Of a stretch of DNA of 64,000 bases, positions 10,877-54,500 are shown one piece after another. The translations under genes were made by a program, and so were the position numbers. How positions within the stretch are numbered: position 1 is the first letter of the stretch; each line of letters starts with the position of its first letter. Source of the DNA: Laetmonice hystrix (taxonomy: Eukaryota); the NCBI GenBank assembly GCA_965235115.1, contig OZ249436.1, positions 35,714,001 to 35,778,000 of the forward strand. The letters are read 5' to 3'. Below the pieces are notes generated by a model. It had not been told where the DNA came from, ran no database searches, and saw only the letters and a list, made by a program, of their open reading frames with translations.

Positions 10877-10920
<44 letters not shown>

Positions 10921-18607: not shown

Positions 18608-18839
18608 TATATAGCCTACAGGACACCACATTTGTTACGCCATTTAAGCCGAGTGGTATTTTCCTGAATAAAGATGATTTAGAAAAAAAACACGGAAACA
18701 TAATTAGGCGGTAAGCAGGTGACGCTGCGTAGCACCCCCCCCCCCCCCGCCCCTCGCGAGAATAGGCGTGGGGTCGTGAGGGGGGGGGGGGCACTGCGTT
18801 TCAACCCCGAGCGTGAGAGGACGATTGGGTACTACTGCC

Positions 18840-26661: not shown

Positions 26662-26834
26662 TGGGCTGGCCGGAAGTGAAGTTCCAGGGCTAATCTATTG
26701 CATGCCGGGGCTAGGCTAGACTAGACTCAAGTAAAGGCAGCCGAGGCGGGTCGGCAAAATTAACGGGGGTCAGTCCCACAGTCACAGTCACAACTAAAAC
26801 AGGTCTGTGCTGAACTGACCACAGGAGTCTGACA

Positions 26835-28800: not shown

Positions 28801-28890
28801 TTCAAGGTCAACCTCCCACAGTTTCGCCTGGGCCGAGCTCAAGGGGTAGAATGCAGGATGCGTGATGCGTATCCCCTTGACAACTCAAGA
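28801..28890. repeat. Short dispersed hairpin-containing repeat (other copies ~32050-32128, ~46034-46091)
   Basis: ctcaaggggtagaatgcagg.tgcg.gat..ccccttgacaa shared by three loci. Confidence 0.75.
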
Positions 28891-30419: not shown

Positions 30420-30812
30420 GGGAGCGTAAGTATGTCACGTCACAATGCGTGAATCGACGAGAAATGCGCTTTGGAGGCCCAAACTGGCGCCAGCCAAATT
30501 CCGGTTCCGTTCATTTAGCATTGGGAGGCCCATTGAAAAAACGTTCTAACTGATAACTCCAAAAATACTGTTCTCTTTGTTATCAAACTGACTATACATC
30601 AGAACCAACATCTCTTATAATAAATGTCAGAAAAAATACATTTCATACTTAAGAAATATTTAATTGTCAAAAGAAAGGCCGATGTTTGGAGAGGTGTACC
30701 CTCGCCCTATGTTAAACCAGTGGGGGATTGTGACGTAACGGAAGTTGCATGTCGCCAGCGGTCTGACCCAGTTAGACCGAACCTCGTTTTCGGTCGCGAG
30801 ACTTACGCTCCC
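30420..30812. mobile_element. MITE with TA|GGGAG...CTCCC|TA termini
   Basis: TIR gggagcgtaagt / acttacgctccc, TA on both sides. Confidence 0.75.
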
Positions 30813-31060
30813 TATATAGGCCTAGGCCGAGACCGACAACTCGCCGCGCAAGCTTGCGAAGCGACGGTCGATGCCCAAATCAATTTGGAATTTCAAGGGA
30901 ATTTTTTTGCACCCCCCTAGTTTGCACACATGTGGTGTGGCGACTGTTTCGCCGCGAAAACCTATCGCTTTCTGTTCAAGAACGGTTGGCAGGTATGCTG
31001 ACTCATTACACTACTGACTCTGTAGGCCCCTACTCTTACCGGTGACAGCAGACACCTTAA

Positions 31061-31588
31061 AGGGAGTCGTAAAATTCATTTTTTTCGATTTATGGCAGTC
31101 TTAGAAACATATGATTCGCATACCTTGGACTCCCAGTAACATCATGTGAGACTGTTATGGCCCAGCGACCAGTATTTAGTAAGGAAAATATGCCAAATCT
31201 CTCGCAAATACGTAGCTCAGAATTAGCGAGCGGCCCACAGGATATTTGAGTTGGCCGCGGTCGGGCGATGATGACGCGTGATCACGTGACTTCCGGGTGT
31301 ACATGCGGTATTTATAGGACAATGCTAGACTAGAGGGAGATTCCCTTCCACACTCGGAAGTCACGTGATCACGCGTGATCATCGCCCGACCGCGGCCAAC
31401 TAAAATATCCTGTGGGCCGTTCGCTAATTCTGAGCTACGTATTTGCGAGAGATTTGGCATATTTTCCTGACTAAATACTGGTCGCTGGGCCATAACAGTC
31501 TCACATGATGTTACTGGGAGTCCAAGGTATGGGAATCTTATGTTTCTAAGACTGCCATAAATCGAAAAAATGAAATTTACGACTCCCT
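31061..31588. mobile_element. Near-perfect foldback MITE with TTAA TSD (Kolobok-like AGG termini)
   Basis: TTAA|agggagtcgtaaa...tttacgactccct|TTAA; ~235-bp arms with few mismatches, ~55-bp spacer. Confidence 0.9.
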
Positions 31589-32175
31589 TTAAGCTTTTTC
31601 TCTCTCTTCACATTGGGGTAGGCCTATGTTAACAAATACAGAGTTTGTGTGCGGCTACCGTTTGCAACCCTCTCTGAAATCGTCGATGAATCTGTCGCCA
31701 TCTTGCTTCGAATTGGTTAGTGGTGACGTCATGGGCAGGTTTCTGGTAAAAGTGGAATCGCAGTGGGACGTGAATAGCGGCACTCTGGCCGGGAATCTGC
31801 GTGGTTCGTTCCGCCTGGCGGCCACATAACAATTCGTGGACAAGTAGGGCAGACAAGCAGACGAAGCCAGGGGGACAATGGCTCTACATTTCAGTTGATT
31901 ATTCCTTTATTAAAGATCAGACCATCACAGGATTGTAGGCCTAGGTAGGAACAAGCTTGTTCATGCTGGACACCCTTATATTGATAGTCTGAACCTTTCC
32001 ACTGCCTTTAATATTCATGAGGTTGACTTCAAGTTCAACCTCCCGTTGACTTCAAGTTCAACCTCCCACGGTTTAGCCTGCGCCTGTCCTCAAGGGGTAG
32101 AATGCAGGATGCGCGATGCCCCTTGACAAACTGCAGATGACCATATACCTGAAGGCCGGTTCATACTTTTTATTT

Positions 32176-32544
32176 CTACCTACGCCGACTCAGCAGCGAC
32201 TGAGAATTTGACGCCGACTGTACGACTGTTGGTAGGCGACCATGCAGTAGGAGTAGTAGGCGTTGGTCGGCGTCAATGATCGCTGAGCGACGAATTTCCA
32301 GTAGTCTACTGATTTTTCTGAAATGGCCATAGTTCATTTCAGCCACTAGTCGCTGGGCGACTGGCCAAACTGGCCAATGGGAATCCAGCATCATGACCCT
32401 TGTCCTTGGCTCCAGCAAGACTCCAAAGAGACTGAGGTAAGGTCAGCGACGACGTCATCGAGGGAGGGAGGTTGTCGGACGACCTCAGTGATTCAAGTCG
32501 CCGACGGTAGGCGACTGCGCCCGCTGGTCAGTCGGCGTAGGTAG
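32176..32544. mobile_element. MITE with 15-bp TIR
   Basis: ctacctacgccgact / agtcggcgtaggtag; internal ggcgac/gtcg motifs. Confidence 0.65.
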
Positions 32545-34685
32545 GCGTCAGGGCCCGTATTCATAAAACTTCTTTATTTACTAAGACCTCTTAAATCTAG
32601 TGCAGTCCACTGAGGTAGGTGGGGTACTTCAGTTGAGATTCATAAACAAGCTTATAGGGGCATATTATGAGAAAACGTGAATCGGTATTTCAAAGAACTT
32701 TTGCTGTTTTCATGAAGAGATCCTTCATTAAAATTGCTTGGTAAACAAAGACAGACTTATCAGTTCCATTTTGCGTGCACGTGACACGCAGAACCCTCGC
32801 GCGTCCTCAGACGGTTTGTTTTGTTCAAAGCGATTCACATGGCTGACGAACGGGACATGGAGACGGCGAGTAAGCGCCGAACATTTCGCAGTACGTTTAG
32901 TTTTATCAGTCAGGAAATTGTGTGACACTCGATCGTGGTGGAAGGAGTCGGGAAACAATGGCGGCTCTGGGACCTATCGAGCGTGTTCCGCGTATCGCAC
33001 ACCCCCTCCCCCACTGACTGGAGTCGATGTAGTGCCCACTCGAGGTGCCGCCGCTCACAATGTCCAGCTCGCCAACGACCCCCTTGCCTTGGTTTCCGAG
33101 ATTGACTTGCTGTCTTTTCCAACTTCTGTAGGCCTATCTTTCTTTCCTTGGCCGCTTCTCTACCGTTTCCGTAAAATATTTTTGGGTGGCATTCTGATGC
33201 CGAACGATTGAGTGCAACGGCTGAATTGTTTACAACTAAGCGAAACACGTGACTAAGCACATGCAGAGAGTGCACACACAGGATGTGACGTAGTACGCAA
33301 TTATACACGGGTTGATGGGAGGTTGTCTACCAATTTATGGCGGGACATGTGCCATCGGGAGAAATCTATACGTTTTGTCCGATGGAACTAACTCGTGCTG
33401 CATACCCAGCGAAAACAGGTCGGAGGACAAAATGCTGTGGTAGGATTATTTACTTAGATAGTAGGCCTACACGGTCCTGTTGGATATTTGCGGAAATCCT
33501 CCAAAACGTGTTTCTTAGCACGGGCCTTTAAGTGCCCCACTTGTTCAGTACCCCGCGCAAAGCCAGGGGAAGCGTCTCAAGTAGCCTTCTTATGTCAAAT
33601 TTCCTTGTGGTTTCAGTAAATTTCCTGGAGTTGGGTATAACCTGCCAAGGACAAGGCGTGCACGTCTTGTAATAATATCCAACTATGCTGTGTGAATTAT
33701 CATTTGTTTCTAATAATTTTAAAATATTGTCCATGGTGACGCAACTTAACCCTCATATTGAAAGGGTTAATGAGTTACAATAATGGTACACAAAACGAAA
33801 TTAAAATGAAGTGGCGTTTCATGTTAGCAAAATGACCACAACATAGTACAATTCCGTACACGAACAACGATTAATCACAATCTTTATCACCCCAGCATGG
33901 TAATCCAAGGCGAAAAGTCTCTATTGACAGGATACGATACAATAGCTCATTTTGCCTCTCTTAGATCTATATGTACAATACAGTGATTTACTGTTTTGTT
34001 ACAGACGGAGACCCTGTACCTCAGCCTCTTTCGCTTCTCTCACAGAAGATAAGGTCAATACTGGGTGAGGATGACCCAACAATGAGAGAATTTCAGTGAT
34101 ATGATCAACCTGCCTAAATTTAAGACAGCCTCGGAGGTCATTTTAGGTGGTTTGCACAACATAAGTAGCATATTATTTATTCGGAGTCCCTAATTTAAGT
34201 GGGTACTTAAAACCCGGTCTGTTTTGTCTTAAAGCGGCATTGTTGGTATCTTTGAGAATAAAACACTGGGAGACCTGAAATAAGACGTTTTATGTGTCAA
34301 GAAAGATAGCAATTAACACTTGGAATTTTATTTTAATGTCATTAAACTAGGGCCTTATCAAAATTTCAGCATCATCCACGTGTATAAGAACAGAGCTGTC
34401 TCATGGAACACAAGAAGAATACACACATCTCTGGTCACCATTCTCGAGACATCATAATATTTCAATGATTCTATCACCACATACAAACATTTCTTATGTA
34501 GATTCTCTAATAGCGGGTACATCATTTTAATCTGGGTACCTTTGGCAACGATCCAAATCTCTTCTCTACATTCATAATTTTTACAAGGTTTTGCAAACAA
34601 ATATACTAACTTTATGTATATTTCACATCACATACTGCTAAGGTTTTCAAGTGCAAGACGTTTACGCTTTAGATGAAGTTCCCGA

Positions 34686-37600
34686 TTACTGATTCGGTTG
34701 CTGGCTGTAGCCAGGCGGTTTCGTTTGCGGCGTGTATGCTGGCGGCACCTGGTGGTAGACAATGAATGCATTATTATCAGGCCTCGATACAAAATGTCGG
34801 CCCTAATTGTTTCACACCCCTTTTACACTCCTCGCCATATCTATTCTTACTTATCCAATGGCATGCCCCGACATAAGACACTAACGTCCCCTCTATTTTA
34901 GGGAAGTTAAATAACTAGCCTTAAAAACGGAAGATATTTTATACAGACCACTGTGTGTCCTGCTGGCGCACTCGACACAGGGCCCCCGGAGGGGTATACT
35001 CCGTAGACCACGTGGGTTCCTCCGTCAGTGGTGGTCACGGCACCATAGGCAGGACGGCCCCGGCCGTTACAGACCGGGCCGCCGTAGTACGTGTCGGTTG
35101 GACCCCGGACCAGGATGTACTCGGGCCGTTGGCGCCGTCGTCGTCGGCACCAAAAGCCGCAGCTGATGAGTAATGTGAAGAGAACTACCCATAACATCCA
35201 AAACCCTGCAACAACAGCGAATCAAGGGTTCACACAGATCTAGAACTTGTGATATCTCGAAGTTTTCCTTTGCCAAATTTGATGCCTCAAGTTTTTTTTC
35301 CATATAGTCACGCAGTGTAGTCTTGTAGTAGTCTATGCGAAAAGTTTTCAGACACGTCAGACAAAATGTCATTCGTTGAAAAGCTTGTTGGTTTTTTGTC
35401 CTGCATGTAATAGGCCTAGGATTTCCTATTAAATCCACCCTGCCCTCCCCAGCCCTATTATAATGACTCGACCGTGTGGGTGTTTGGGTGGGTGGGTGCG
35501 GGGGGGGGGGCAGTTCGGCCGGGAACCTGCCGGCCTCCCAACCCATGCCTTATAGGGGACGGCCACTATAGATATTGCAAAATTGTATTTATTTCAGGTG
35601 ACTCATTATTTATTTCCAGATAGGGCCTACTAATAACACATTATTTATTTCGGGCATGGCCAGGGAGAATAAATTTATTTCACCAATTTTCCACCCAAAA
35701 TTATTTATTTCCAAAAATGCCCAGCCCCCCGCCCCCCCCCCCCTCCTAACTAATGGTCACTCCCTTAGATCCTGTTCGGTCTAAGAAGAGCTCGACCTCG
35801 GCCTCATTAAAGCTCTGACCTGCCCCCCTCCTCCTGTCTACCCACAGCTGGCGTATCACAAGTCATCACCGCCTGTCATTCAAGAATATGACCAAATTCC
35901 ACGTGGTTCTGTATTACCCCAAATGAAGTAATAGCTTTAATGAGGCCGAGGTGGAGCTCTTCTTAGAGTGAACAGACTATATACCATAGCCAGCTGCAGG
36001 ACACAGATGTCAAATTGGCAGGTGTGAAAGGAATGTAATTCGACCGACTTTTTCCACTTGGTGGTATAACACATATTAACTAAGAATATAGGCCTATATA
36101 TAACTATATATGCTAAGACAGGATTAGGTTTATAAAGATATATTGATATAAGATAACATCAAGCAGGCCCGTTGGACCTAAAGTTCGGCGATTGCAGGTC
36201 CATATACGATAGACACTGCAGATTTACGTTGACGATTTCCGGTGGTCCGGCGTGTTTCAGCTTAGCTTACATAGGATCTATACACTGGACAAATGTAGAA
36301 AATGATGCCTCCTCCGTTGTGCCAGAAGACAAGGGGGTTGCAGCACTACTGTGAAAAGTCTCTACCGGAAGTGGTCTATTTGACTGTACATATATCATTG
36401 TATCCTTATTTACTGTTATAAAATGGCTGGCGTGCACTATTCTGAACCCGCAACGTCGCAAACGAAAACACATGATGAAACGTATATCGCCCCCCGGACA
36501 GAGCATACGTATAATGCCTTTCACGCCTCGGAGGCCCCCGGCTGGGCCTCCTCGGCCGTCGTGCCCTATCTCACCGCCAACACTATTCCTTAAATACAAT
36601 GACTTATTTTCACACCTGGTTCACCTTATCAGGCAACAATGTCACTGCTATCATGATATCATGTCCAGTATGCACGCACACGAGTTCCTTTGACTTCCTC
36701 AAATTCATTCTCCCTGAAATGCGAGTCCAATGCCCACTTTTAATATGAGTATAGACTCTCTTCAATGGATCCTTCCTGAGTTTTCTCCTCAAAGGTTTCA
36801 ACCTTTGAAACCTTTTTCAACCTTTCAACCTTTTTCACAACGGCAGTTTTCCATTTTCACGACTTCGGCTATGGGAAATGCAATGATGTTCACAGTCCGC
36901 ATTATTAGGTTCCTTATGAGGCCTTACTGACGTCAGAATACTAATTTGAAGCTTTTACAGGACACAGAAGTGTTTGCTGCCGTTTTCGTGACCTGAATTA
37001 TCATACTAATCGTTCCTGACCCTCTCCTTATCAGCGAAAAGCCTGACATTTAGCTACCGGTAGTCTACATATCCGCACAAGAGCCTTGGTGAAAGGACAC
37101 ATCCAGAGGGGTGGGGGTATAAAAATGAAAGGAGTACGCTGATAATTCAAAGTTAAAGCACTGTTATCTGATTTAATCATTGTATTGTGGTGCTTGTTTC
37201 CCTTGTTATCAAAACTGTATTTAGCCATGGATAACCCCCAATTTTATCTTCAAATGCACAGTAGAATATATATTTCAGCCGTCCCGTCAACAACATGTTC
37301 TGTGGGTAGAAATGTTATATTGCTGTTGCAGATAAGAGGTTCCAACTGTGCACTGTTATGATTAGCTTACCGTAAATATTTTTTAAAATAACATGTAGGA
37401 CTAGGACTTACACCAGAGACTCCAGACTTCATAGCAGCATCCATTACCACAACAATAGGCGCCTGCCCCTGCAAGGATAATGGATCTTGATGATCTGCTG
37501 TAAAAAAAAGTTACTCTATAAAAATTGTTTAGCATACCTGGAAAATATTAACCTTTATGCACCCGCATTAATTATTACGCTATTACGCTAACAGTCTGCA

Positions 37601-38661
37601 TCATTTTAAGTACACTTACCCACACAGCCCGCATTCTTTTAAGGAATCCCCCCAAATTAAGGTATGCTATTTCAACCCTCTGTCTGAACTCGCAATATTC
37701 CATGCTTGTACTGTGACGTCATATTGTGATCTTGCAAATCTTCGAACCTGGGCTGTGATGCAATATTAGCGAACTGGCAAATTTGTGAGATGCCCTTCGC
37801 ATTGCTGCTCAATGCATAGGCCTACATTTTGCAGCGTAAAGTTAATCCCAGAAGCCACATACCAAAACTTCCATACACTATCTGTGCAATAACGGTTTTC
37901 CCAGTGCAACGTAATATGTAGGCCTAGAGGGGACTTTATTGATTGAAAAAAGCATACTAGCTTACCATAACATAACCAGGATCCGCATCGTAGAGCCTAG
38001 AGTGAAGAAACGGACATAATGTGTACATAAATTTAGTTGTTTTATAAGGTAGGCCTAAATAGTTAAAATTATAAGTTTCTTGATAATTGTAATAGATCTA
38101 TACAGCAAACGATAAACTGTAGGCCTATGTACACGCTCGGACTGTGGGGAGTTACCTGCAGTATCTAATATACTATAAAACCTAGGCCTAATTAATTTTG
38201 GTTTATCATTAATGTCGGTTCTATAGTTTAGCACAGTACTGCAGTAGGCCTACTGTAGTTGAAGTTTCCGCTATATATTTGTGTACAGGTATAGATCTAT
38301 GGCACATTAGACATAGGCTAATATCTATCAAGAATTGATTGTCTCCCTCGACCTCGTGTAGCCGTCCACAGCGCACCGGGTCACGGGTTAAGTTTAACCC
38401 AGGAAGCTCAGCCAGTTCTGACTCAACTAAACAACTTAATTCATATCATCATGGCTTGGCCAGTGAAGTAGGTAGGCCTACGTGATCACTGCCTTTGTGT
38501 GTCAACTTTCAAGAAAGCGTATTTTGTCAAACACCTAAACCCAAGGGTTATAAGCTGTTGAATTGTACATGTATTGTCAGTAGGCCTATACTCACGTTGG
38601 TCACTTCAAAAAGCGCAAAAAGTACACATATCGCGAATCCCTGGTCTTGTCGCCTCGCCAT
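34686..38661 (-). CDS. WBP1/VOPP1-like single-pass membrane protein with PPxY motifs, 5 exons, ~157 aa
   Basis: Exons 38661-38596, 37996-37966, 37468-37412, 35205-34949, 34748-34686 splice in frame (GT-AG): MARRQDQGFAICVLFALFEVTN|ALRCGSWLCYG|AGAYCCGNGCCYEVWSLW|WFWMLWVVLFTLLISCGFWCRRRRR...|VPPAYTPQTKPPGYSQQPNQ*; signal peptide, Cys-rich ectodomain, WWFW TM, poly-Arg stop-transfer, PPAY/PPGY. Confidence 0.85.
35773..35974. repeat. Short inverted repeat, ~40-bp arms (MITE-like)
   Basis: tgttcggtctaagaagagctcgacctcggcctcattaaagct / agctttaatgaggccgaggtggagctcttcttagagtgaaca. Confidence 0.7.
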
Positions 38662-38952
38662 TTTGTATGTCAACAAGCAGAGTCACATGATCCAGTACCA
38701 AACCCACGTGGTTAGACAAAATTGGTCCATAGGTCATGGTCTGCTTCGGGTCAGCACTCGAGAAGCAGCGTCGGTGTTCCGAGTGCACTCGATTGGTAGC
38801 GCTTGTATCAGGTCACGGAGCAGGTGCAGTGGCGAAAGGAATGGAACTGTCCTGTCTGCTGACCACCGAACCACGTCATAATTAGGCCATATTTAACGGT
38901 GCCAGTGCATAGTTGACACACCCAAACAGTTTCAGTTTTTCATAGGCCTACG

Positions 38953-39415
38953 CGATACTTTGTTACTAGCAGTTTTTAAAAGTACCAAAAACATACACAA
39001 ACACTTTCACATGTGTGATACTGTGTTACTAGCAGTTTTCAAAAGTACCAACATACACATACACTTTCACATTATGTGATACTTTGTTAGGCGTACTAGC
39101 AGTTTTTAAAAGTACCAAAAACATACACAAACACTTTCACATGTGTGATACTGTGTTACTAGCAGTTTTCAAAAGTACCAGTATACACATACACTTTCAC
39201 ATTATGTGATACTTTGTTAGGCCTACTAGCAGTTTTTAAAAGTACCACAATAGAGTCTACACATAAACAATTTCACATATGTGATATTTTGTTATTAGCA
39301 GTTTTCAAAAGTACTACCATACACATAAACACTTTTACATATGTGATACTTTGTTACTAGCAGTTTTTAAAAGTACCACCATACACATAAACACTTTTAC
39401 ATAATGTGATACTTT
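38953..39415. repeat. Minisatellite, ~57-64-bp unit, upstream of the WBP1-like gene
   Basis: About 8 tandem copies of gtgatactttgttactagcagtttt.aaaagtacc...catacaca.acactttcacat. Confidence 0.95.
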
Positions 39416-40074
39416 ACGAGCTTTGAAAAAATAAAGTGCAAATCATGCATTCTCTTGCCTTCACAGGCAATTCCTTGCCTTCTCAGTTAATTCCTTCTTT
39501 CTCGGATTTCTTGTGAAGCGAAGGAACTGTCTGAGAAGGCAAGGAAGGCCACAAATGCCAGTGTGAAGGCCTGCTGGAATTCCACTGTGAAGCGAAGGAA
39601 TTGTCTGTGAAGACAAGGAATTCTACTGTGAAGCGAAGGAGCCACTGTAGTCTACGGCGGTGCATAGGTAGGCTGCTGTTGAAGGAATCCCGGCCACCGT
39701 AAACTTGTTTGAGTGACCCCTGACCTGACCTAGAAATCCCCGGCTCGAATCATGGCTGCTCGACCGCTGTTTCCTGGTAGCTGAGGCACTCTTGTTTACA
39801 TTTTAGGCGCCAATTCTCAAAATATGATGCGACACAAACATCCAAATCTTCGGAGAAATCATCTGCAGAAGTACCTATATAGGCTAGTCCAAAACACCTG
39901 AAGTATTTCGAATCGTCCCGAAATTGCCCCGCCTGAGTTGCGACCAGCTGCTTTCCGTCCGCAAATGTAGTTCCTAATACATGTATTTGATCAGGTATTT
40001 CTCTTGTACTTAAATTTTACAGATACCATAGATGTACAGCACGGCCGACTTTGACAAAACGGGGTTAAACGCTA

Positions 40075-41225
40075 AGGGCCCAAACACACTGGGCGTGCGC
40101 GTGCACGCACACGCACCGCCATGCACGCGCGTGCACGCGCACGCCAATAATTCCCAATGCAATTCCGATATGACCAAACACACTAGGCGTGCGCGTCACC
40201 TTGCGTCGCGTCGCCTAGCGTCGCGTCGCGTCCAAACAATCCCCAAGCATTCGGGACTCCCTCGGGCATATGACGTCACTTCCTGCTATTCGAATATACC
40301 CTCGGGTGGAATAGCGGCCATGTTTGGCAACCAGATACACCGCCAAATGGAGGTGTGTAGCGAGGCACTGAGTGAACCGTCATATCCCATCGAGCCAGGA
40401 AGTAGTGCATTATTGACACCCGCTCCTTCGGCGTTGTATGTGCAAATATAAATTTCTGGTATGAAGGGGAACGTTTGAAGAAGAAAAATGAATCACCCAA
40501 TTTACCTAAATGGGCGTCAATACGGTAATTTATTAAATTCTGGGAAGCAATATGGCCGCGCCCATGTACGACACGCGTACGACACTGGCCCGACACATGG
40601 TAGGACTACTTGTAATCATGTTGTAATTTAAGTTGTATCATGACATGATACTATTGTAATATTGCCCACTGACTTCGGGGAAAGCATTGTAGGCCTATTT
40701 TAGTTGCTTCCATGCCTGATGCAGACAAAATACTGCAAGCACTGCCATGCTGTCGAGAGTCCCGGCTAAATGTACCCGAGATGCAATGCTCAAAATGGCA
40801 CCTGTTTCACCCGAGGCTACTTTCGAAGATATGGCCGAGGATTCCCGAATGAATCCCCAAGCAATTGTTTGCACGCCACGCAACGCTTCACCGCCATTTC
40901 TTGTCCAATCAGATTGCAGCATTTTGACCTACATTTTTTAGTAGGCCTAATTGACCCTTTATCAGCTTAAATTGTCTGTGTCATCTTTTCAACATGTCAT
41001 AGTTAGAAGAGTTAGTAGGCCTAAATGGAACCATCTCTACTATTCTTTTCTATACTATTCTATTCTATTCACGTCACTCAGGTTGTGATGGAAACCTGCG
41101 ACAAGCGTGCAGTAACACGCTTTCCGCCAGTACAGTGTGTTTGGTCCCACGCGCGTGCACGCGCGTGCATACACGCGCGTGCACGCGACGCTCGGCGACG
41201 TGCACGCCCAGTGTGTTTGGGCCCT
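40075..41225. mobile_element. Harbinger-like MITE carrying a nested MULE-like MITE
   Basis: TIR agggcccaaacacactgggcgtgc / gcacgcccagtgtgtttgggccct; CpG-rich subterminal gcgcgtgcac repeats. Confidence 0.85.
40248..40851. mobile_element. MULE-like MITE, copy 3, 10-bp TSD
   Basis: TIR cattcgggactccctcgg / ccgaggattcccgaatg; TSD aatccccaag at 40238-40247 and 40852-40861. Confidence 0.9.
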
Positions 41226-41967
41226 TAGGGGCCGATTTCGCCCATAAAAAAGGCACGTGTGGCAATGGGGCACTATGCGAAGCAAACCCCTTTGCATTAT
41301 GGGAGATTGTATCTGACTGTGTGGCTGGGGCCGTTAGGGTCTTGATGATCAAGACCGCTGTTGAAGCAGTTGTAGGCTATAGACTTTCACAGACAAGTCA
41401 AACGCACGGTCGTTTAATAGGCCTATGTATGTTTATTATATGGGAAAGTGGTTGTGATAATGCATGTGATAATGGTGACATTCGTTGACGTGAGCGGCTT
41501 TGCAACTGGGCTAATAAAAACCTAATAAAAACCGATATCGCACTGATTTTACGGTCTACTTTTTGCTACCGCACCATATGGCCCCGTACACAAAAATAAA
41601 ATAGTTCCAAGGTTCTTTAATATTTGTGAATTGTCTGTATTCCTTTCTACTTCCCCATGCATGCGGTTCCCGAGTACATGTGAAAGATAATGTCTACCTA
41701 GTCAAGAAAGACTTATATTTGACATAATTGGCTCAGAGTATCCTAGTAACGGCTGATAGGCCTAGGGATATTTAGGCCTATGTCCTAAAAAATCCTGGAT
41801 CTACTAATGCTCTGCCATAGATCGTATACACATATGGACAGCTTATAAGTAGAGTCTAAAGAGGAAACCAAGAAGGACATAGGCCTAATAATGTGAAATA
41901 GAATAATGGGTTTTAATGGGGCCACATACCTTATTGTTGGGTCAAACTTTGGGGGTTTGGCCATTTT

Positions 41968-42418
41968 TTGGCCATTGTGGCAACCAGATACAATGACGAA
42001 ATGGACCTATGTAGCGAGGCACTGAGTGAACCGTCATATCCCATCGAGCCAGGAAGTAGGCCTAGTGCATTATTGAAACCTGCTCCTTGGTATCGTAGGC
42101 CTATGTGCAAATATAAATTTCTGGTATGAAGGGGAACGTTTGAAGAAGAAAGATGAATCACCTAATTAACTAAATCGGCGCGTGATATGGAAATTTATTA
42201 AATTATAAGAAGCAATATGGCCGCGCCCATGCACGACAACAACAACAGGCCTATTTCAGTTGCTTCCAGGCCTGATGCAGACAAATAATACTATAACATA
42301 AGCACTGCCATGATTTTCAGAGTCCCGGCTCAATGTAGGCAGGCTACCCGCGATGCAATGCTCAAAATGGCGCTCGATTCACCCGAGGCTACTTTCGAAG
42401 ATATGGCCGAGGATTCCC
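41968..42418. mobile_element. MULE-like MITE, copy 4 (5'-truncated)
   Basis: ggcaaccagatac...gtagcgaggcactgagtgaaccgtcatatccc...cccgaggctactttcgaagatatggccgaggattccc. Confidence 0.8.
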
Positions 42419-42519
42419 AATTGGCTCGGGCTGTTGAGGGTCTGGATGATCAAGACTGGGCCATAGACGTCTATGACTGGGCGGATCCCTGTGAGCAGCG
42501 TTTGGACTGGTCCCCAGGA

Positions 42520-42642
42520 GGGTGTTTCAATAAGCGCGTCGGACCGTCCGACTGGCGACGGACAGTCCGTCGCTTGGTTGTAGGGCCTGCAACATTTGGT
42601 CCGTCGCCGGTCGGACGGCCCGACGCGCTTATTGAAACACCC
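42520..42642. mobile_element. Tiny palindromic MITE
   Basis: gggtgtttcaataagcgcgtcgg.ccgtccgac.ggcgacggac / gtccgtcgccggtcggacggcccgacgcgcttattgaaacaccc. Confidence 0.75.
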
Positions 42643-42728
42643 CCCAGCAGCTCTTTTTACAACCACGCGGAGGGGTCACGCTCACATTCGCGCCCATTTG
42701 CTGAAATGAACGCTCACAGATCCTGCAC

Positions 42729-43234
42729 CATTCGGGATTCCCTCGGGCATATGACGCCATATAGATCTGCATATAGAGGGGTCTACCCTCGGGTGAAATG
42801 GGCGCCATTGGCAACCAGATACATAGCGAAATCGACCTATGTAGCGAGGCACTGAGTGAACCGTCATATCCCATCGAGCCAGAAAGTAGTGCATTATTGA
42901 AACCTGCTTCTTGGCATCGTACGTGTGCAAATATAGATCTATATTTTGTGGTATGAAGGGGAACGTTTGAACTGAAAAAACAATTACCAAATTTACCTAA
43001 ATGGGCGTGATAGATCTACGGTAATTTATCAAATTATGGGAAGCAATATGGCTGCGCCCATGAACGACAACACCACGACAGATCAGGGACGACAGATGGT
43101 ACGACCACGACTAGATCTACTTGTATCATGAACATGATACTCTCGTAATATTGCCCACTGACTATGGGGAAAACACTGTAGACCTATTTTAGTTGCTTCC
43201 ATGCCTGATGCAGACAAAATAGGCTACTGCAAGC
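42729..43234. mobile_element. MULE-like MITE, copy 5 (3'-truncated, closest to copy 1)
   Basis: Left TIR cattcgggattccctcgg; colinear with 16885-17355 apart from several TA-anchored micro-insertions. Confidence 0.85.
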
Positions 43235-43237
43235 ATG

Positions 43238-46029
43238 AGCTGGTTCTCGGCTCACTCGCTAGGTGGCTCTGTGGTCGACGCGAGTAGGAGCCGGTAACGC
43301 CTACTGAGAGCTTGGCTGTCATTGGTCACACTCCCGTCTTTGATAGCTCACTTATTATTGGCTTATCTAAAAATACATTGAGGATGTGCCGCTGTGATGG
43401 CCGCGCTGGCCGCTCACACGATTTCTTCTACCAAATTTAGAACTTCTATCATTGTCACTGTCCAGTGACATTTGGTGAAAAAGTAAATCGACTGTTAACT
43501 TTGAAATTCGCCGTAAGTAGCTATTGTAAAGATTTCAACTGCGTGATAAATTACTTGACTGTGTCAAGGCAAAAGCAAACTGATGTTGTCTTCGACTTCG
43601 CCAGTGAGCGTCGGTAGCGCTCCATGCCATGGACTTGGCCGGGGTCCTCAGTGCCAGTGGGGTCTCCCGGGCACTTCGCCCGTGAACACGCGTGTTAGGA
43701 CATTGCCTAGACCTCACAGGTGTTTGTAGAAAGTGTACCAGAGATTAAAAACCATTGGCCGTATGCAAGAACGTATTTAACCTTGAGGTTAACCCAGTCT
43801 GTGGGTTAACTCGTTAACCCGGTAATACGCGGTATGCAAGAACGTAAAAATTGTCAGGGTTAACCCGTTCTCTGGGTTAAAGTTAACCCTGCTACCTTAG
43901 TAGGGTTAACCCACAGAAACATGGAGGCCGTGAGTGTCGATTGCCTCTGAATACTTGCCTATCACCAAGCCTACGAGTCATCTACACGTTTTAAGTTCCG
44001 TTTCTATCTTGCTGAGATACCGTTCCTACAGCCTGACCCATTTTGCCATCTCTTTGCTGACTAAACAAGAGGCCACAATGACGTGAATCGAGACATGTCT
44101 GTGACATAGCAGTCCAACGTCACAGTCGCCTGACCGATTTATTGTGACGTCACAGTAAAGATCACGTCAGAATTGATATCTCTGTACGTTACCGCAAGAT
44201 GCCGCTTGATTGTGGCTGGCGAGTTTATCCTAAACAGCCAAATGCAGCACCATTTTTATTGCAAGTTGGTTGCATTTGAACTATTTTTTTGTTACTGATT
44301 TAAATATGTCAGGTAAAGCAAGTTTCCTTCTATTTTAAAGGTCAAAACCACCATTAGGCTGTATGGAAAATACAGATTACGATGGGGTGATACGGAACGA
44401 AATTGACTGACTTAACCCGGTGATTTTGAGTTAACCCAGAGACGAGGTTAAACCAAAGTGTGGGTTAAGCCGTTCTCCGGGTTAACTCTCGCCACTGTTC
44501 TTGCATACGGCCACATGTTTCTAGTTAATTTAGAACATATGATATGAACCTTCAATTATGTGTGGCAAGTTTGGTAACGTATCTATTCGTAGCACGTGAC
44601 ATAGGTCTACATGTGTATGAGAAATTGGGTTGAAATTGATTGTGCAGCTGCCTGAGTGACAGCGACCCATGCCTGCCAGTGCCAGGTGGCTGTGCTGGCC
44701 GTGAGACTCTTCGGAAAACCTCGGCCCAACTTCCGGTCGCTTCGCTAGTTGTGGACTCGGACGTCGCAAGCCGTAGAGATATGACAGTGATTCCACGGGT
44801 TTGGGTACATCACAACTCGCGTAGTGCGCAACGGCGCAAAGTAGTTCATAGAATGTCGGTGTTCGGCCTAAAGCGGGATTGTTTATTGATCAGGAAAGAT
44901 GGATAATTTCCGAAGATTTGCAGTCTCGATCGTTCTTAGCAGCAGCGACACATTCAGTTTTGCAGTATTTATGAAATCATACGACTTTACTAGCTTGTAT
45001 CAACATAAGAAATGACGTCATACGCCCAAAGGAATCCCGAGGGAATCCCAAGTGAGACAGCTCGTCCGTGGGACAAACGTTGACCTCCGTCTGACGATAA
45101 ACAATGCCAATAGGAATGTCAACATCTAAGAAAGTATCTATAGAGACCTAAATATATTTTCTCTGACGTCTAATCCACTTGTCAGAGGTATCAAGCGGAG
45201 ATCTGTTTTTAAACAAGCCAGAAACTGCTTGTCTTTCACCTTTGTCGGTGTGTCTGCCGTCGCCGTTTTGACCACGTTGTGTCACGTGATCCAACATGGT
45301 GACGACTGTGCGAGGGCCGAGAGGATCTGGCCCGGACAGTCCCGAGGTGTGCCGATCTGGCCCGGACAGTCCCGAGGTGTGCCGAATGGTACGGGAGCGT
45401 TGCCTGGGAATCCTAGCCTGGTCCCCATGTCTATATTGACTACGTGAATGCGTCTGGTAGGCAGGGGACCAGGCTATGGGAATCCCGGAAATACGTCATT
45501 ACCAACCACTCTCAGACCCCCCACGATGTACGGCCAGAGCGTACAAAGATGGCAGGCGTTACCGGCATTCTCACACTCGAGTCCTTTCGGCAATCTTCGG
45601 CAATCTTCGTTCGTGCGGGGAAAGCACTCTCACAGATTACATATCACTCACGGCCCGATTAGGAGCATCCGCGCCACCTCACTCGTCACACCGTGAATAC
45701 AAAGTAGTGCGTGCCGGTCGGCAAGATTGCTGATGTTGTTGAACAGGTCTTGAATTAAACTTACGCTGGTTGACTGTCTTGAGCTTAGAACCGCCGCTGG
45801 CGCTGGTTTGACTGGTGTCACGTACGCGGGAAGCCATGTCTTCCATGTAGGTACTGCGGTGAAACTAGTTCGCCCCGGTGTCCTCGTTACCCCCTGCGGT
45901 TTGCCCAGAGTCCCGTGCAGGATCTATGAGCGTTCATTTCAGCAAATGGGCGCGAATGTGAGCGTGGCGTTACCGGCTCCTACTCGCGTCGACCACAGAG
46001 CCACCTAGCGAGTGAGCCGGGAACCAGCT
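43238..46029. mobile_element. ~2.8-kb segment bounded by ~63-bp inverted repeats (composite element)
   Basis: agctggttctcggctcactcgctaggtggctctgtggtcgacgcgagtaggagccggtaacgcc (43238-43301) vs reverse complement at 45966-46029; no transposase ORF. Confidence 0.6.
43757..44513. mobile_element. Harbinger-like MITE with GGTTAAC subterminal repeats, nested
   Basis: TIR ggccgtatgcaagaac / gttcttgcatacggcc; many gggttaac/gttaaccc motifs near both ends. Confidence 0.75.
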
Positions 46030-47349
46030 TACCCTGGGCTAAGCTCAAGGGGTAGAATGCAGGGTGCGCGATACCCCTTCACAACTCAAGATGGGGGTTA
46101 CAGAGCCGTGTGTCTCGCCTCGTATGACTCGGAGACAAAGGGATCAATACGGAAAATTGCCTACTATTGATCACTACGAGAGTAGGCCTATACATTGGAA
46201 AATAACATTGATGAGTAGCTATAGGCCTATCACGTTGGAGGCTATGACTTCCAGGGCAGGGGCGGATCCAGCTTTTTCCGTTGGGGGGGGGGGGGTTCAA
46301 CGTGTTTAGGGGTAACACAGACGTGACTGTACGAGCGCCGAAGGCGCGAAGCCTTCTTCGGGGGTCCGGGGGCATGCCCCCCGGAAAATTTTGAAATTTA
46401 AGGTGTAATTTGTTGCAATCCGATGCATTTTGGAGCACAAAATAAGCTATTCAATGACCAATGTGACCAAGGGCAAAAGGGCCTCCTCAACTCCAACAGC
46501 ATCTTTGGCTATAGCATGAAATCATGCCGAGCGTAGCGAGGCAAAACAAAATTCTAGGTGGTTTTTATCTTGCGACTGAAAGAAAAAAAACTTCTAAATT
46601 ATGTTAAGCTAAAATGTGTGTAGATCTATCTGCAACATTTTGGGGGGGGGGGGGGGGTCGAACCTCCTGAACCCCCCCCCCCCCTCTCAACACGCGATCG
46701 ATGATGTAGGCCTAGAATCATCTATAATTTCAAACTGGACGAAAATGGTAATATAAACAAAGTCTGGATTTAGATTTGAGCGGTGATCAGGTACTTGGAA
46801 TAAGTTCGCATGCTAAAGCCCCTTTCTCCCTTCACGATTTTTACGCCGATTCATGCCAATGTCAGTTCATGGGAAGTCGCAGGGGTGTCACAGGACAGAT
46901 GTGGGGGTCGGGGGGGGGGGGGGGGGGAAGTCGTGAACTTGTCGCAAGAATAATGGCCACCATTAGGTCAACTTTTGTTCAAACTGATATTAAACACACG
47001 TGGTCTTTCTTTGTCTCAATTTGAAAGAAAACGGTGGAGAATGTACGGAGATTCGTCCTGAAATGCGATTTTCCCAATATGCCTGCCAAGCATTTTGTGA
47101 AAATAATATGAAAAGGATTGAACTAGATTGGGTCTGATTTCATTGCTAACTAGAAGTTTCCTCAAATGAAGTTTAAGCGCGAATCCTCAAACTCCAATAT
47201 CGGCCTTTTCCCCGCGTCTCTAAACGTGATGGACTGTGCTACATTGTGTGAAACATTTTGAAATGAACCCAAACCCAGGCGGACACCTTTGGTTCGGTGC
47301 GGGCGATGGTGATACAAATCAAAACGAGATGTGCATACTGGCTGCAACA

Positions 47350-47355
47350 TTTATT
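47350..47355 (-). terminator. Putative poly(A) signal (AATAAA) of the UBAP2-like gene, ~1.2-kb 3'UTR
   Basis: tttatt on plus strand at the end of an AU-rich stretch downstream of the stop at 48543. Confidence 0.5.
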
Positions 47356-48542: not shown

Positions 48543-51500
48543 TCAGTTGGTGCCCCAGTAGCCAGCGCTGTATGACTTCGTGGCGCCTGGCTTGGGCTGC
48601 GAGCTGCTTTGCTGAGAGCCCCGACTAGACCCGCCAGTCGAGTCCTGGAACACCCAAGTTTACACAAACATTCTTATTTCATTGCCCACATTCTCTATGT
48701 GAACCTGCAAATCGTCATTGCAGTTACATCGTGTACACCTCTGCAAATACACAGACGATGCCTACAATTTTAGGAAGAATGTTCCAGAAACAACTCAGAA
48801 ATACCACTTGTCTTCAACAATATTGCAGAAGAACGATAGTACAATGCTACATCACTGTTGTTCCTAATCCCTTCTCTCAGGTAAAAAAGTGACACAATTC
48901 CAAGTTTGGGGTAATATCCTACTCATCAGATTCCTGGACAGGCACGTACCTGCTGAAGGTGTGGATGGAGCATCTGGGAATGAGCCTGGTGAGGCATCAT
49001 GGGCATGTAGGGTCCCCCATAGGGAGCCGTGGGGGCCCCCATCGGTCCAGCCTGTGTCCCCGTCGGCAACGGGATATTGAAAGGAGGCGGCGTGCCAGCA
49101 TGGAACCCAGTCTTGTCAAAAGACTGCAACAAATCAAAAAACAAATCAACAGAGTATTATGGTTTCACAGGTACTCGATATGCCACGCTGCTATAATGGT
49201 AAATAAACAAAGTCTCATTTCTTTAATAATAACCCTATTGGGTGCACTACATTATAAACTGGACTGCTTTTCCTTGGAAGAGCCGGGGGGGGGGGGGGGG
49301 GGTCTGAAAAATCTGTCTTGCTATATAAGTTGATACACTGATAAGCAATGCCTCCAAGACACTGCGATGATTATTATTATTTTGAAGTTACTGGAACGTT
49401 TTGAAATCTGGAATTTGACCTATATTAAGAGGTACGTGACTTTGAAATTTGTCTAAAAGTGCTTCAATGAGATAGGAATCATGTATTTGGTCACAAGATG
49501 TGTGCTGCTATTAAAAATTGGTCACTTTCCATAATTTTTTTCATAAATTTACCAATAATTTGTTATTTATGATGAAATATGTAATCTTACTTTGACAGGC
49601 TCTATCTTGAAATGTGTTTCAAGATAGGTATATGCAAATACAGGTTACAAAGTGTATAGTCAGGTATACCACTGATTGTTTAGTTGTTTTCTTGGAAAGG
49701 TAATATGGACAGAATTTTAAGTAATGGGTATAGGCTTCCCAATTAAATGTTTGTCACTCAGGACGGTCGGCTGTCTGATTACAGTCTCACTGCCTGGGTC
49801 GGCAGCATTACGTAACTGCTGATGATAAGGTTGGGATTGGCGGCGACTCTCCCATTCTTCGGTATATAATTCATGGTAACTTAAACTCCACGAAATTTGG
49901 ACGGAAGTAAAGATCTAGCACCATCCCAACCCTGACCTTATCCATGGTTCCCACGCTATCAACTTTCCTAAATTCCCGGACTTTTCCCTGATCTTTATGA
50001 CCTTTTCCATGACGGTTTTCCATGTTCAGGTCTCCTTCCATTTTATCTTAGCATGGGATATATTATGGACGAACGGTACCCCGAGTCGACCAGACTGTAT
50101 TATCAGCCACCTAGAACCTGAGTCTGTTGGTCAAATTCCCGGACTTTTCCCGGACTTGAGCACATATTTATCAAATTCCTAGACTTTTCCCGGCCCGGGA
50201 GGCCCCAATAAAAAAATTCTGGACTGTTCCCGGTTTCCCAGACCCGTGGGAACCATGCTTATTTCTAACCCCAGTCCCTACACCTGCCAAAAATATATCC
50301 CTATCCCTGACCTTAACCCTAACCCCTACCCAAAAATTTCGTAGGGAAGTTACCATGAATTAATAAACCATTCTTTCCAGTCAGAGTGGGGTTTAGTTTT
50401 TGTTTTTTTAAGTTCTCTTTATTTACCCTGAGACGTCAATCCACGATAATACAATGCAGGGTTTCATTGGTTTGATGGATCCTTGTGCTCAGAACAGACT
50501 TAACTGAATAGCTGGGCTTTGTATTTATAACTGTAGGTGTAACCGTCTCTTACTCTGACTGTCATCTCTCAATATACAGACGGCCCACTGTGAGGCCACC
50601 GCCTGTCCCTGGCCGGGGTTCAACAAAGAGTTACGAAAGTGCTGGTGATAAGGGTAAGTCGTGGATACACCCCTGCTCCTCCCAGTCAGGGTGGGGTTAA
50701 AGGAATATATGCGTACTTACAACTGAACTAGCTGTGCTTTGGAGCGAGTAGGCATAACTGGCTAATACATATGATTTTGAATCTTACACCTGAATAGGGA
50801 GCCAAAGTAAATCACGCCAAAGTGCGCGTGAAACGCGTGAAAACAGCCAGTGGAGTCGCCCTAATATCGCTTAACATATGAAGTCTGTATTCAACCCATC
50901 ACTACGGTTGCTAGGTTAAGAATTTTGCTTCGGAATAAAGCGTAGGCTGTGGAGCAGAATGTGTTAAAGGCTTGGAAAAAGTTTAGATGCCCTGGGAAAC
51001 TCTTAGACATTTTAAAAATCAACTTTATCGGGCCCTGTCCACACCATGATTGAGAGACCCAATCAGCGACGTCAGGAAAAATACACAATAGCGCTACGTC
51101 ACAATGGTCATTTGGAATGTGATCATAACGGGCCTAAATATTAATGGTGGACAGTGCTTCGCTTCGCCAGTTCAAACGTCTCTAACTGCTAAAATACACA
51201 GGGAAAACCGTTGAAACGTGACATAAGGGGATAAAATATTGAACCAAACAATGTCACTGACTTAGAATTGTTTAGCAAGGTCCCTCCTTTCTTAATTCAA
51301 GCACTGTCATCGCCGGAGATCGGTGAAGTTTGTGATGTTACAATTTCGTACCCTCGTAATCTGACAGTTTTTCCGTAAATCTTGAAAAGTTTAAGTAACA
51401 GATGTGAATGCCATATACTTTTATAGATTGAGGATTACTGTAAAATTCGGTCTGGATAGATTCTAAAATTAATTGTTGTCGTTTAGTATTTCTAATAGGC

Positions 51501-54500
51501 TGTTTTTATTGGGGCCTGGCTTGACCCAAGCCAAAGTCAATGAGTGGGCGATAATGAACTGACACCAGCGACTGCGCATGTCCGAGACTTTGGCTCCCTA
51601 TATGATTTTGGATCTTACACCTGAATAAGCAATACACTGATTGTTTGCGGTGGAGTTCAAGTGACATGACCATCTTTTAGTCAGCCTCCCTTGGTTTCAG
51701 CCTGAGCCAACAGCCTGGTGCACGGATGACATTCACACCCATTGTCCTTGTGCGACAGTTGGCTGAATCACAGGACAGTCGAATTGAAGGAGAGAAAAAA
51801 TGTAGATGATAGAAAACCATTGAGGAAATGGGACCCTACCTGTACTGCTTGACAATCAGAATTTTTAGTTCTAATTTCATACTAGTCCAAGACAACCAAT
51901 TACCTGTGTATGCGTCTTGCCGTAAGTGCTGCCTGCCAGATCTGTTGCACTTGATGACACTGTAATTATATATCGAGATTCATACATGTGAGAGTACATG
52001 CAATACAAAAACAATTTACGAGTAATAAGTTTTAATTACCAAAGTTTGTTCGATAACAAATAAAATGATAAAGAGTTTATCGAGAATTTTCTTCTCTTTT
52101 TCATAAGCCTTTATATCGTGCTATTTTCTGCTCACATCCCTGGCGGAGCAGGCAATTTGCCAGGCATGTTTTATTTTGTTCTGCTAGTTACCTGAGCCTG
52201 CCGATCCTTTGGACTGCGATTGTGATGCACCTCCATATTTGCTAAAATCCTGGGTCTGACTGCTCAGATCATCATAACCTAAACATGTAATAAGTAACGT
52301 ACCATATAAACTGTTATTAGATTGAACATACAAAATCTGACTGTCCCTTCAGAGTTTCTGAACAGGCAGGAACACATATTCTCTAGACGTCTTGCTGCAT
52401 TAATGGCTTGTCCTCAATACAGCCACAAAAGTGCATTGAGAGATACTGTTGTAATATTGCAGGTCGTTTTTATTCTTCTGCCCTTTCCTTGGTCAATTAT
52501 TTCAATACGAGTAGACGCCTATTCTTAAAAAGATCTGTGATGTTGATCGCAAGCTGTGAGACTACACACCTGTGTTGTAAGCATGAGATCCATATGCCCC
52601 TGGTTTCTGAAATTGCGCATTTGCCGTTGTGCCTCCATGCGCAGCATTTGTTACCGACGGCACCTGAGCAAACAAAAGGCAGACACACATAAAAAAATCA
52701 TTCATTTTTTCCCCCCACAAATAAGACAAAAGTTGCTCCTCCCAAACACTTCACAGAGCACGTTTAGTTCCGACTAAATTTATGGGGGGGAAAACCATGT
52801 AGGCCTCCATCTTGCAAAAATAAACTTTGTTTTCCAGGGTACCATAACAAATACGTAGGTTCAAGCAAATAATAATTTTTCTTAAAAGGACATAAAGTAA
52901 ATAGAAAGAAACAGCCAAGAACTGAGGGAACAAAAGGAGATGGAATCCTCCACGTGTCAACCAAAATGTAGAAGGGGGTTAAATAAGGAATTAGAAAGGA
53001 CCCATACTGGTCTGGTTACTTACGATGTTACCTACCGGGAACATGGTGGGAGTGTAAGAGTAGCCTCCTGGCACCATGCCACCAGGATAGTAGTTGTAAT
53101 AACCAGGTGGAATCGTTGGATTGATGTATGCCTGTTGGTGACCCGACTGATTCTGCCCTTGCTGTGAAGACTGCGCTTGGACGGGCGACTGGGCATCCAT
53201 ACGACCTAATTTTCCATCACCACCTGGACAGAGCAAGCGTCAACATGTCTTCCTATGTTAGTGACCATTTTCCTTTTAGACTTTATACTCTTTTTACTAA
53301 TGGCAAAGAGGGTTCTTTTCACCCTATTATAGACTCAATCTTTAATGGGGATGGCAAAAAGGCGATTCTACTCAGGCCTCTTTTTCTTCAAACATCCCAA
53401 ACCTCTATGTTGAAAGGAGTTTCAATGGCTATGACTGGCTTTACTTCTTTGGGCCCTGACTGCATCTAGATATGGTTAGGATTCTTGGTATAAATAAGCC
53501 CTGAACAGGGATGTGCCCATAAAAAATTGAGTTCCAGGCGGTAGTTTTGTGCTCGCACCGAAGCGCAAGGGTTTCAGTTGGCAAGAGGTGTGGGTAGGGG
53601 ACGGTATGGTTAGCGCCTTGGGATGAATGAACAAGAGACGGTATGAGAAGTTAATATGTACACACATTTATCAAATGATAAGCCTAATAAAAATTCCTGC
53701 TGGGCAGCACTTGAACCTTTTTGCTGGGCGGCTAAAATTGGTGCCAGGGGGGTTCGCCCGGCGCCCTGCCTGAATATACAAGGTGTATCAAAAAAGTATA
53801 CACTCAGAAAAATGAACAAGAAACGGACCTTATATTATTTTCAGCAAATCTGTCCATACATATTGGGAAACGATTTTTTGATACACCCTGTAGTTAGGAT
53901 ATAGAGATTTTCGAGTTTATAATAAAGATTTTCGCCACATTCTTGGACCATTTTACCTGTTCAGGCTCAGACCTAAAATAGTTACTATACAGTACAAGTA
54001 AATAGTTTTAAATTCCATTAAGTGTGCAATTTATTATTACCACTTCCTGTTATGACCCTGAAGAGAGTGAATAAACCGACCATAGAGGTACCATGTTATA
54101 ACTTAGCTTCGTTATGATATACATGTTGCATTATTATGAGTCAAGACACCAAATTTCATCAATATGTGGTAACAAATTAAGCAACCAATCACCTCCCCCC
54201 TTAACTATTTATCCTGAAACATCTAAAATTTTCACTATGAAAAAGATATTGCTTGAAACGTAAGTGGCAAACTAAAGCTGCTTAATATCAAAGATGCCCA
54301 AGAAAAGGTCCATATTTTAATATACAAGTTTTATTGATGGTGTGGTCACCATTTAGCCATTTTATATAATTTCCATCGCCATCTTTGGTGGTATAATTAC
54401 AGCGACTGAAACAAACCCCCATTTCTGGACTGCTTCGGCCTTGCTGGCAATGATTTTGGACTGATTTCATGCCGTACTTCCTATGATGAGGAACTGGGTG

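What the first reader, a model, noticed from the sequence alone, without database searches (positions are those of the whole stretch)
30420..51598. Candidate footprint donors: TA|GGGAG...CTCCC|TA elements in the same window
Seen: two different MITEs (30420-30812 and 50797-51598) share termini TA|GGGAGC..AAGT ... GAGACTT..GCTCCC|TA. Retaining 2 nt from each end of such an element between duplicated TAs gives exactly TA-GG-CC-TA. Inference: this superfamily may generate the TAGGCCTA scars; I cannot assign the superfamily from the ends alone.
Basis: inference. Interest (0 to 1): 0.7.

Follow-up and report, generated by a model that had tools for sequence, protein, structure and literature searches.

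The report
Two mini-transposons, unproven scar donors
Two related small jumping-gene remnants with GG...CC tips sit in a stretch of animal DNA that is peppered with six-letter insertions turning TA into TAGGCCTA; the insertions are likely scars of transposon excision, but these two elements are probably not their main source, so the donor is still unproven.

Summary
Observation confirmed. E1 (30420-30812, 393 bp) and E2 (50797-51598, 802 bp) have perfect 12-bp terminal inverted repeats, TA on both sides and related, asymmetric ends (24 of 32 left, 14 of 16 right), with unrelated interiors. TAGGCCTA occurs 51 times against 0.7 expected; 3 of 6 sites with a paralog are clean +6 insertions.

The donor link is geometric only. 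For it: keeping 2+2 terminal bases gives the scar, and one scar abuts E1 at the same ancestral site, though it may be a duplication of native sequence. Against it: both elements sit in A-TA-TA (6 of 51 scars do); E2 lies in the scar-free, CpG-depleted domain; the element boundary is ambiguous (TA|GG or AT|AG); TAGGTA is not enriched while TAGGCTA is, which fits GGC ends as well. No transposase, autonomous copy or three-allele locus was found; no genome was available.

Best reading: the scars are likely excision footprints of GG-ended, TA-targeting elements, mostly of another family. The scan noted these scars repeatedly before, in this genome and others; two unchecked notes name a pogo-like donor. 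Interest 0.3.

The parts
30420..30812 (+). E1, 393-bp non-autonomous TIR element (MITE), 12-bp perfect TIR
   Evidence: contigs of three runs of one sample join across the site (30414 to 30822, 407 skipped)
30416..30419 (.). TATA left of E1 (TA duplication plus one further TA)
30813..30816 (.). TATA right of E1
30817..30824 (.). TAGGCCTA abutting E1; scar, or 6-bp duplication of native TAGGCC (the next bases are GGCC)
50797..51598 (+). E2, 802-bp non-autonomous TIR element, 12-bp perfect TIR, CpG o/e 0.94 in flanks of 0.5
50770..50796 (+). left copy of a 27-bp tandem unit ending in the TA next to E2
51601..51627 (+). right copy of the 27-bp unit (1 mismatch), after the TA at 51599-51600
10828..46714 (.). 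domain holding all 51 TAGGCCTA and all 11 TAGGCTA/TAGCCTA; CpG o/e 0.68-0.97
42057..42064 (.). TAGGCCTA, +6 against three paralogs with plain TA
39218..39225 (.). TAGGCCTA, +6 against four tandem units with plain TA (a fifth unit has TAGGCGTA)
26993..27000 (.). TAGGCCTA, +6 against three paralogs (which read TG at the site)
43220..43226 (.). TAGGCTA, +5 against two paralogs with plain TA

Best explanation
E1 and E2 are related non-autonomous inverted-repeat elements, likely TA-targeting, and the TAGGCCTA words include real +6 insertions at TA that are likely end-joining scars left by excision of GG-ended, TA-targeting cut-and-paste elements, probably mostly of a family other than E1/E2. Mechanism, step by step: (1) an element inserts at TA and duplicates it (established for IS630-Tc1-mariner-pogo elements, PMC2874221; inferred here); (2) the transposase cuts the non-transferred strand a few bases inside each end, leaving terminal element bases as 3' overhangs on the flanks (established for Tc1/mariner, PMC6943129; inferred here); (3) end-joining keeps 2+2 bases (TAGGCCTA), less often 2+1 or 3+2; with GGC ends the same words come from annealing of 3-base overhangs (inferred); (4) scars are then copied further inside repeats (shown for 2 of 6 testable sites). 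The main donor would prefer R-TA-Y, G-TA above all, and act in CpG-rich (probably unmethylated) domains. The GGGAGC lineage appears to use ATATA sites and would contribute a minority at most.
For: Scars: 51 against 0.71; +6 against paralogs at 3 of 6 testable sites; ladder TAGGCTA 11 vs 3.1, TAGGGCCTA/TAGGCCCTA 3 vs 0.25, TAGGGGCCTA 1 vs 0.07; parallel +6 words TAGATC (2 sites) and TACATG (1 site) in the same alignments, the last being the Tc1 footprint quoted in PMC3520976. Different donor: scar flanks R-TA-Y 29 of 51 against 29% background, G-TA or TA-C 33 of 51 against 37%; both elements in A-TA-TA, 6 of 51 scars are (p 0.02); E2 in the domain with 0 of 51 scars (p 0.04); the one 4+2 word reads GGGG, not GGGA (0 seen). 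TA-duplicating pogo elements with G-run ends exist in print (Entamoeba Fot-like TA|GGGGT; PMC7386202 supplement).
Against: Only two elements could be tested and both tests were chosen after looking. E1's TA run may have grown after insertion. A scar-like word sits at the same ancestral site as E1, which has about a 2% chance per TA (51 of 2420 TA). E1 and E2 are the only GG-ended TA-flanked TIR elements found in the window; no GGC- or GGGG-ended element was found. E2 could persist in a methylated domain because it cannot excise there. The alternative donor was not seen by me; it rests on unchecked earlier notes.
Confidence: 0.45

Rival explanations
1. One reading: the GGGAGC...GCTCCC lineage is the main donor. 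Its transposase would leave 2-base GG overhangs that are joined end to end, as in the Tc1 TACATGTA footprint.
For: Exact geometry; only GG-ended TA-flanked elements in the window; TAGGCCTA 4 bases from E1, all 407 extra bases mapping to one ancestral site; 3+2 words fit GGG ends; E1's bin has a summed contig depth near 1e5 against about 64 in gene-bearing bins, so repeats lie there (not a copy number, and the bin also holds host repeat).
Against: Target context (2 of 2 against 6 of 51), E2's domain (0 of 51 scars), no excess of TAGGTA (18 vs 14) or TAGGGTA (2 vs 3.7), 0 TAGGGCCCTA, 0 TAGGGACCTA; the word beside E1 is followed by native GGCC and may be a 6-bp duplication.
Confidence: 0.25
2. 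The elements are mis-framed: their true ends are AG...CT with an AT duplication (or TAG...CTA), so they belong to a non-TA group and cannot leave TAGGCCTA between G and C/T flanks; the scars come from elsewhere.
For: Both read ATA|GG..CC|TAT; the AT register gives a perfect 2-bp duplication in both and also frames E2's 27-bp repeat exactly. E2's left end shares 11 bases (GGGAGCCAAAG) with a TAG...CTA element with a 3-bp duplication at 23534-24467.
Against: ISL2EU has AT directly before GG ends, target A|AT|T (PMC4482050), not met; Pangu needs a 3-bp ANT duplication, absent; no 3-4 bp duplication in the TAG register; ATATAT is the usual Tc1-like target (PMC7913693), which explains ATA/TAT without re-framing.
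Confidence: 0.18
3. TAGGCCTA is not an excision scar at all but arises by another micro-insertion route or mainly by copying inside repeats, or is kept as a protein-binding palindrome in CpG-rich regulatory DNA.
For: 2 of 6 testable sites are shared among paralogs; 45 of 51 sites have no spanning paralog in the window; confinement to the CpG-rich domain; a TACATGTA excess in Phytophthora was read as a binding site (PMC3520976).
Against: The same insert at unrelated TA sites with non-templated GGCC; three different TA-xxxx-TA words as +6 insertions; length ladder.
Confidence: 0.12

Closest known systems
Tc1 TACATGTA footprint of C. elegans (as quoted in PMC3520976, passages) and Tc1/mariner end-joining footprints (PMC6943129, PMC2874221, PMC7913693, passages)
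   Same: TA + terminal element bases + TA; 2+2 layout; TA target
   Different: GG/CC instead of CA/TG; the 2+2 form dominates here whereas it is called rare for Tc1; one-end forms (TAGGTA, TAGGGTA) are not enriched; donor not demonstrated
Sleeping Beauty canonical footprint TACAGTA/TACTGTA (PMC6943129, passages)
   Same: TAGGCTA/TAGCCTA would be its exact analogue for GGC ends
   Different: It would point to GGC-ended donors, not to E1/E2 (GGG)
pogo Fot/Fot-like elements (PMC7386202, passages and supplement 3 rows)
   Same: G-run termini occur, with TA, TAA or TAAA duplications
   Different: TIRs mostly 24-60 bp in the rows seen against 12 bp here; no cell beginning GGGAG in that table (0 word-start hits); no transposase here to compare
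ISL2EU and Pangu of the PHIS group (PMC4482050, PMC4122938, passages)
   Same: GG or AG first bases, short TIRs, AT-rich targets
   Different: ISL2EU has AT|GG with target A|AT|T, Pangu a 3-bp ANT duplication; neither fits
Sola2 (PMC3627910, passages)
   Same: 12-13 bp TIRs, AT-rich 4-bp duplication; E1 has TATA/TATA
   Different: E2 has AATA/TATA; quoted Sola2 duplications are AWWT

Membership tests
MITE (non-autonomous TIR element) | terminal inverted repeats and short target duplication | tested here: met
   12 of 12 TIR, 2-bp duplication in both
MITE (non-autonomous TIR element) | no transposase coding capacity | tested here: met
   longest frames 63 and 80 codons; E2's 80-codon frame has no Pfam match
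MITE (non-autonomous TIR element) | insertion shown by an empty site | tested here: met
   E1: contigs join across the site and a diverged paralog at 16191-16420 lacks it. E2: not tested
IS630-Tc1-mariner-pogo (ITm) | TA target duplication | tested here: inconclusive
   TA/TA in both, but AT/AT in the shifted register is as perfect; E1's empty site differs by extra TA units, so it cannot fix the register
IS630-Tc1-mariner-pogo (ITm) | DD(E/D) transposase of the ITm clade in an autonomous partner | not testable with these tools
   no genome held; no transposase family among the 150 longest of 228 frames of 68+ codons; end-motif scans gave no element
pogo Fot-like | terminal motif and TIR length like listed members | tested here: inconclusive
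   G-run ends present in the group; no GGGAG start in the table; TIR shorter
ISL2EU | AT duplication directly before GG ends, target A|AT|T | tested here: not met
   TA precedes GG; shifted register gives AG ends and T-AT-A / A-AT-A
Pangu | 3-bp ANT duplication | tested here: not met
   no 3-bp duplication in any register from -1 to +4
AcademX | 3-4 bp duplication (PMC10045372 passage); TAG...CTA ends (recalled, from no call) | tested here: not met
   TAG register gives 2 bp at E1 and 25 bp at E2
Sola2 | 4-bp AT-rich duplication | tested here: not met
   1 of 2 elements
donor of the TAGGCCTA scar | same locus seen as TA, TA-element-TA and TAGGCCTA | not testable with these tools
   one sample only; no such locus among the rows shown
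donor of the TAGGCCTA scar | target context and genomic domain match those of the scars | tested here: inconclusive
   leans against, n = 2

The most novel reading that the evidence does not exclude
The GGGAGC lineage is an unclassified TA-targeting transposon group with short asymmetric ends whose excisions wrote about one scar per 700 bases, only in CpG-rich (unmethylated) chromatin, while copies that land in methylated gene bodies (E2) are frozen in place; scars and intact copies would then map germline chromatin state and give a natural record of transposition and end-joining.
Probability: 0.12. Interest if true: 0.65.

Novelty: new member of a known kind. Interest (0 to 1): 0.3.

Why it matters
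Naming the donor would turn a very common genomic word into a countable record of transposon excision and repair, and would show that motif-finders can mistake such scars for binding sites. As it stands the finding adds a real but unclassified MITE lineage and a testable candidate, not the donor. The sharp match of scar domain and CpG-rich domain is the more useful by-product, but it rests on three blocks of one window.

Tried and rejected
No genome was held, so no search for autonomous copies or family-wide flanks was possible. End-motif scans: right-end motif, 1 viral and 59 metagenome matches, 0 of 60 with a partner TIR followed by TA, no BLAST similarity beyond the motif; left-end motif, 0 viral and 1 prokaryote match without partner end. 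All read as chance. Pfam on 150 of 228 frames: no transposase; this scan also gave no family for an evidently GPCR-like frame, so its negatives are soft. Contigs of three runs of one sample laid on 12100-32000: no 6-base indel among 12 rows shown of 152; 8 of 22 scars there lie inside five gap-free pieces that I picked from the 24 listed, six at about single-copy depth, so no second allele seen; contigs drop rare variants. My first reading that E2's 27-bp repeat favours the AT register was dropped: a TA duplication inside an older 27-bp tandem fits with no extra mismatch. Sister words of TAGATCTA (TAGACTA 6 vs 3.4, TAGATTA 3 vs 3.9) were too few to tell 2-base from 3-base overhangs. No GGC- or GGGG-ended TA element in the window. 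Literature: TAGGCCTA anywhere gave 283 papers, the 30 listed unrelated by title and abstract start; searches listed no paper on this scar or this end motif; subscription papers and Repbase are not covered; PMC7165386 (AcademH) was not held.

Full report
Setting. The window is animal DNA: exons of an amino-acid-permease-family gene (Pfam AA_permease_N) and an FkbM-type methyltransferase, among many repeats. Earlier notes call the animal a probable annelid; I did not test that. No whole genome was held. Three sequencing runs of a single sample hold the region.

Observation. E1 (30420-30812) and E2 (50797-51598) are as described. Each has a perfect 12-bp inverted repeat and TA on both sides. Their left ends align 24 of 32 and their right ends 14 of 16, in the same orientation, so the ends are asymmetric and related; the interiors are unrelated. 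By the Repbase rule for non-autonomous elements (positions 1-11, one mismatch; PMC4455052, passages) they miss narrowly with two mismatches, but the longer left-end match makes common descent likely (inference). Such pairs are far above chance (5 seen, two of them these elements, against 0.005). Neither has a long frame.

The scars. TAGGCCTA occurs 51 times against 0.71, all within 10828-46714. Six of 51 have a spanning paralog in the window: three are +6 insertions (42057 and 39218 at TA, 26993 where paralogs read TG), two (27254, 40690) are shared among copies of a repeat, one (42096) is complex. A systematic list of 51 indel rows between paralogs also shows TAGGC (+5, 43220), TAGATC (42934, 43011) and TACATG (39978). 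In the domain TAGGCTA is 11 vs 3.1, TAGGGCCTA or its complement 3 vs 0.25, TAGATCTA 11 vs 0.33-0.47, whereas TAGGTA (18 vs 14), TAGGGTA (2 vs 3.7) and TAGGGCCCTA (0) are not enriched. Tc1/mariner excision leaves 3' overhangs and footprints equal to the first or last 2-4 element bases between TAs (PMC6943129, passages; PMC2874221; PMC7913693; PMC9976928), and TACATGTA is quoted as a rare Tc1 footprint (PMC3520976, passages). The scar reading is therefore well supported, but by inference.

Is this lineage the donor? For. Keeping 2+2 bases gives the scar. E1 and E2 are the only GG-ended TA-flanked TIR elements found in the window. Contigs in all three runs join 30414 to 30822 (2, 1 and 1 contigs), which makes the empty form GAGC-TA-GGCCGA, and a diverged paralog at 16191-16420 also lacks E1. 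The 407 extra bases are E1, its duplication, three more TA units and GGCCTA, all at one site; a given TA carries a scar about 2% of the time (51 of 2420). But the native sequence there continues GGCC, so the word may be a plain 6-bp duplication, and the joined contigs are probably paralogs, not an allele.

Against. (1) Register: both elements read ATA|GG..CC|TAT, and AT|AG..CT|AT is an equally perfect duplication. E2's 27-bp flanking repeat fits either frame. (2) Target: scars favour R-TA-Y (29 of 51, background 29%) and G-TA or TA-C (33 of 51, background 37%); both elements sit in A-TA-TA, as do 6 of 51 scars (Fisher p 0.02). (3) Domain: 4-kb bins with scars have CpG o/e 0.68-0.97, scar-free bins 0.40-0.59; E2 lies in the scar-free part (p 0.04) and has itself 0.94. 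(4) Spectrum: TAGGCCTA plus TAGGCTA are both annealing products of 3-base GGC overhangs (reasoning from the Sleeping Beauty case), while GGG ends need trimming to give TAGGCTA and should give TAGGTA or TAGGGTA, which are not enriched; the ladder fits a G-run as well, and its one 4+2 member reads GGGG. Points 2 and 3 rest on two elements, were chosen after looking, and have escape routes (TA runs can grow later; methylated copies may not excise).

Superfamily. Not assigned. TA duplication points to the IS630-Tc1-mariner-pogo group; G-run ends with TA exist among Fot-like pogo elements, but no cell of that paper's table begins GGGAG (PMC7386202, passages and supplement 3 rows). ISL2EU, Pangu (PMC4482050, passages and supplement passages; PMC4122938, passages), AcademX (PMC10045372, passage) and Sola2 (PMC3627910, passages) each fail a duplication test. 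PMC7325037 and PMC5753468, passages, added nothing on such ends. No transposase family in 150 of 228 frames; end-motif scans of viral, metagenome and prokaryote collections gave chance matches only. The flanks of the family's other copies and E2's empty site were not obtained; both bear directly on register and target.

Earlier notes. The scan recorded these scars many times in this genome and in others. Two notes name a pogo or Fot-like donor with G-rich or GG...CC ends; several found none. I could not see their sequences or check them; a look-up with E1 found no look-alike and the word GGGAGC is in no finding, so whether their donor is this lineage is unknown.

Verdict. Real, related MITEs; real insertions, likely excision scars; link between them possible but unproven. 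Odds: other GG-ended family mainly 0.45, this lineage mainly 0.25, elements mis-framed 0.18, not excision scars 0.12. New member of a known kind, interest 0.3.

Noticed in passing
window 10828-46714 against 1-8000 and 48001-64000: All 51 scars lie in a CpG-rich block (o/e 0.68-0.97); the CpG-poor flanks (0.40-0.59, probably methylated gene bodies) have none. Only three blocks, so a hint.
   Followed up: partly
window 9845-46628: Second scar word TAGATCTA (12 in the window, 11 vs 0.33 in the domain), shown as +6 at 42934 and 43011; third word TACATGTA (6), +6 at 39978.
   Followed up: partly
window 23534-24467: 934-bp element with TAG...CTA ends, 13-bp TIR and 3-bp duplication ACA (Academ-like; end motif recalled); contigs join across it. 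Its left end shares 11 bases with E2's left end.
   Followed up: partly
window 31057-31592: TTAA|AGGGAG...CTCCCT|TTAA element with 229-bp arms (Kolobok/T2-like ends, recalled), 250 bases from E1; contigs join across it.
   Followed up: no
window 7773-9412, 14250-14405, 53779-53890: Further TA-flanked TIR elements with CGGG, CGTC and CAAG/CAGG ends; the first has TACATGTA directly at its left end.
   Followed up: no
window 50770-51627: E2 sits exactly at the junction of a 27-bp tandem duplication; it could be older than E2 or a long target duplication.
   Followed up: partly
window 39878 and 42336: Odd insertions TATAGGC (+7) and TAGGCAGGC (+9) at TA sites against paralogs; scars have an extra TA beside them on 15 of 102 sides against 9% background.
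   Followed up: no
window 20318-21433 (-): Intronless 371-codon GPCR-like frame by eye, with no Pfam match in this copy; two scars (20243, 21358) lie at its two ends, the second inside the stop-to-stop frame.
   Followed up: no
window 57408-57538: Perfect 65-bp inverted repeat with a 1-base loop.
   Followed up: no
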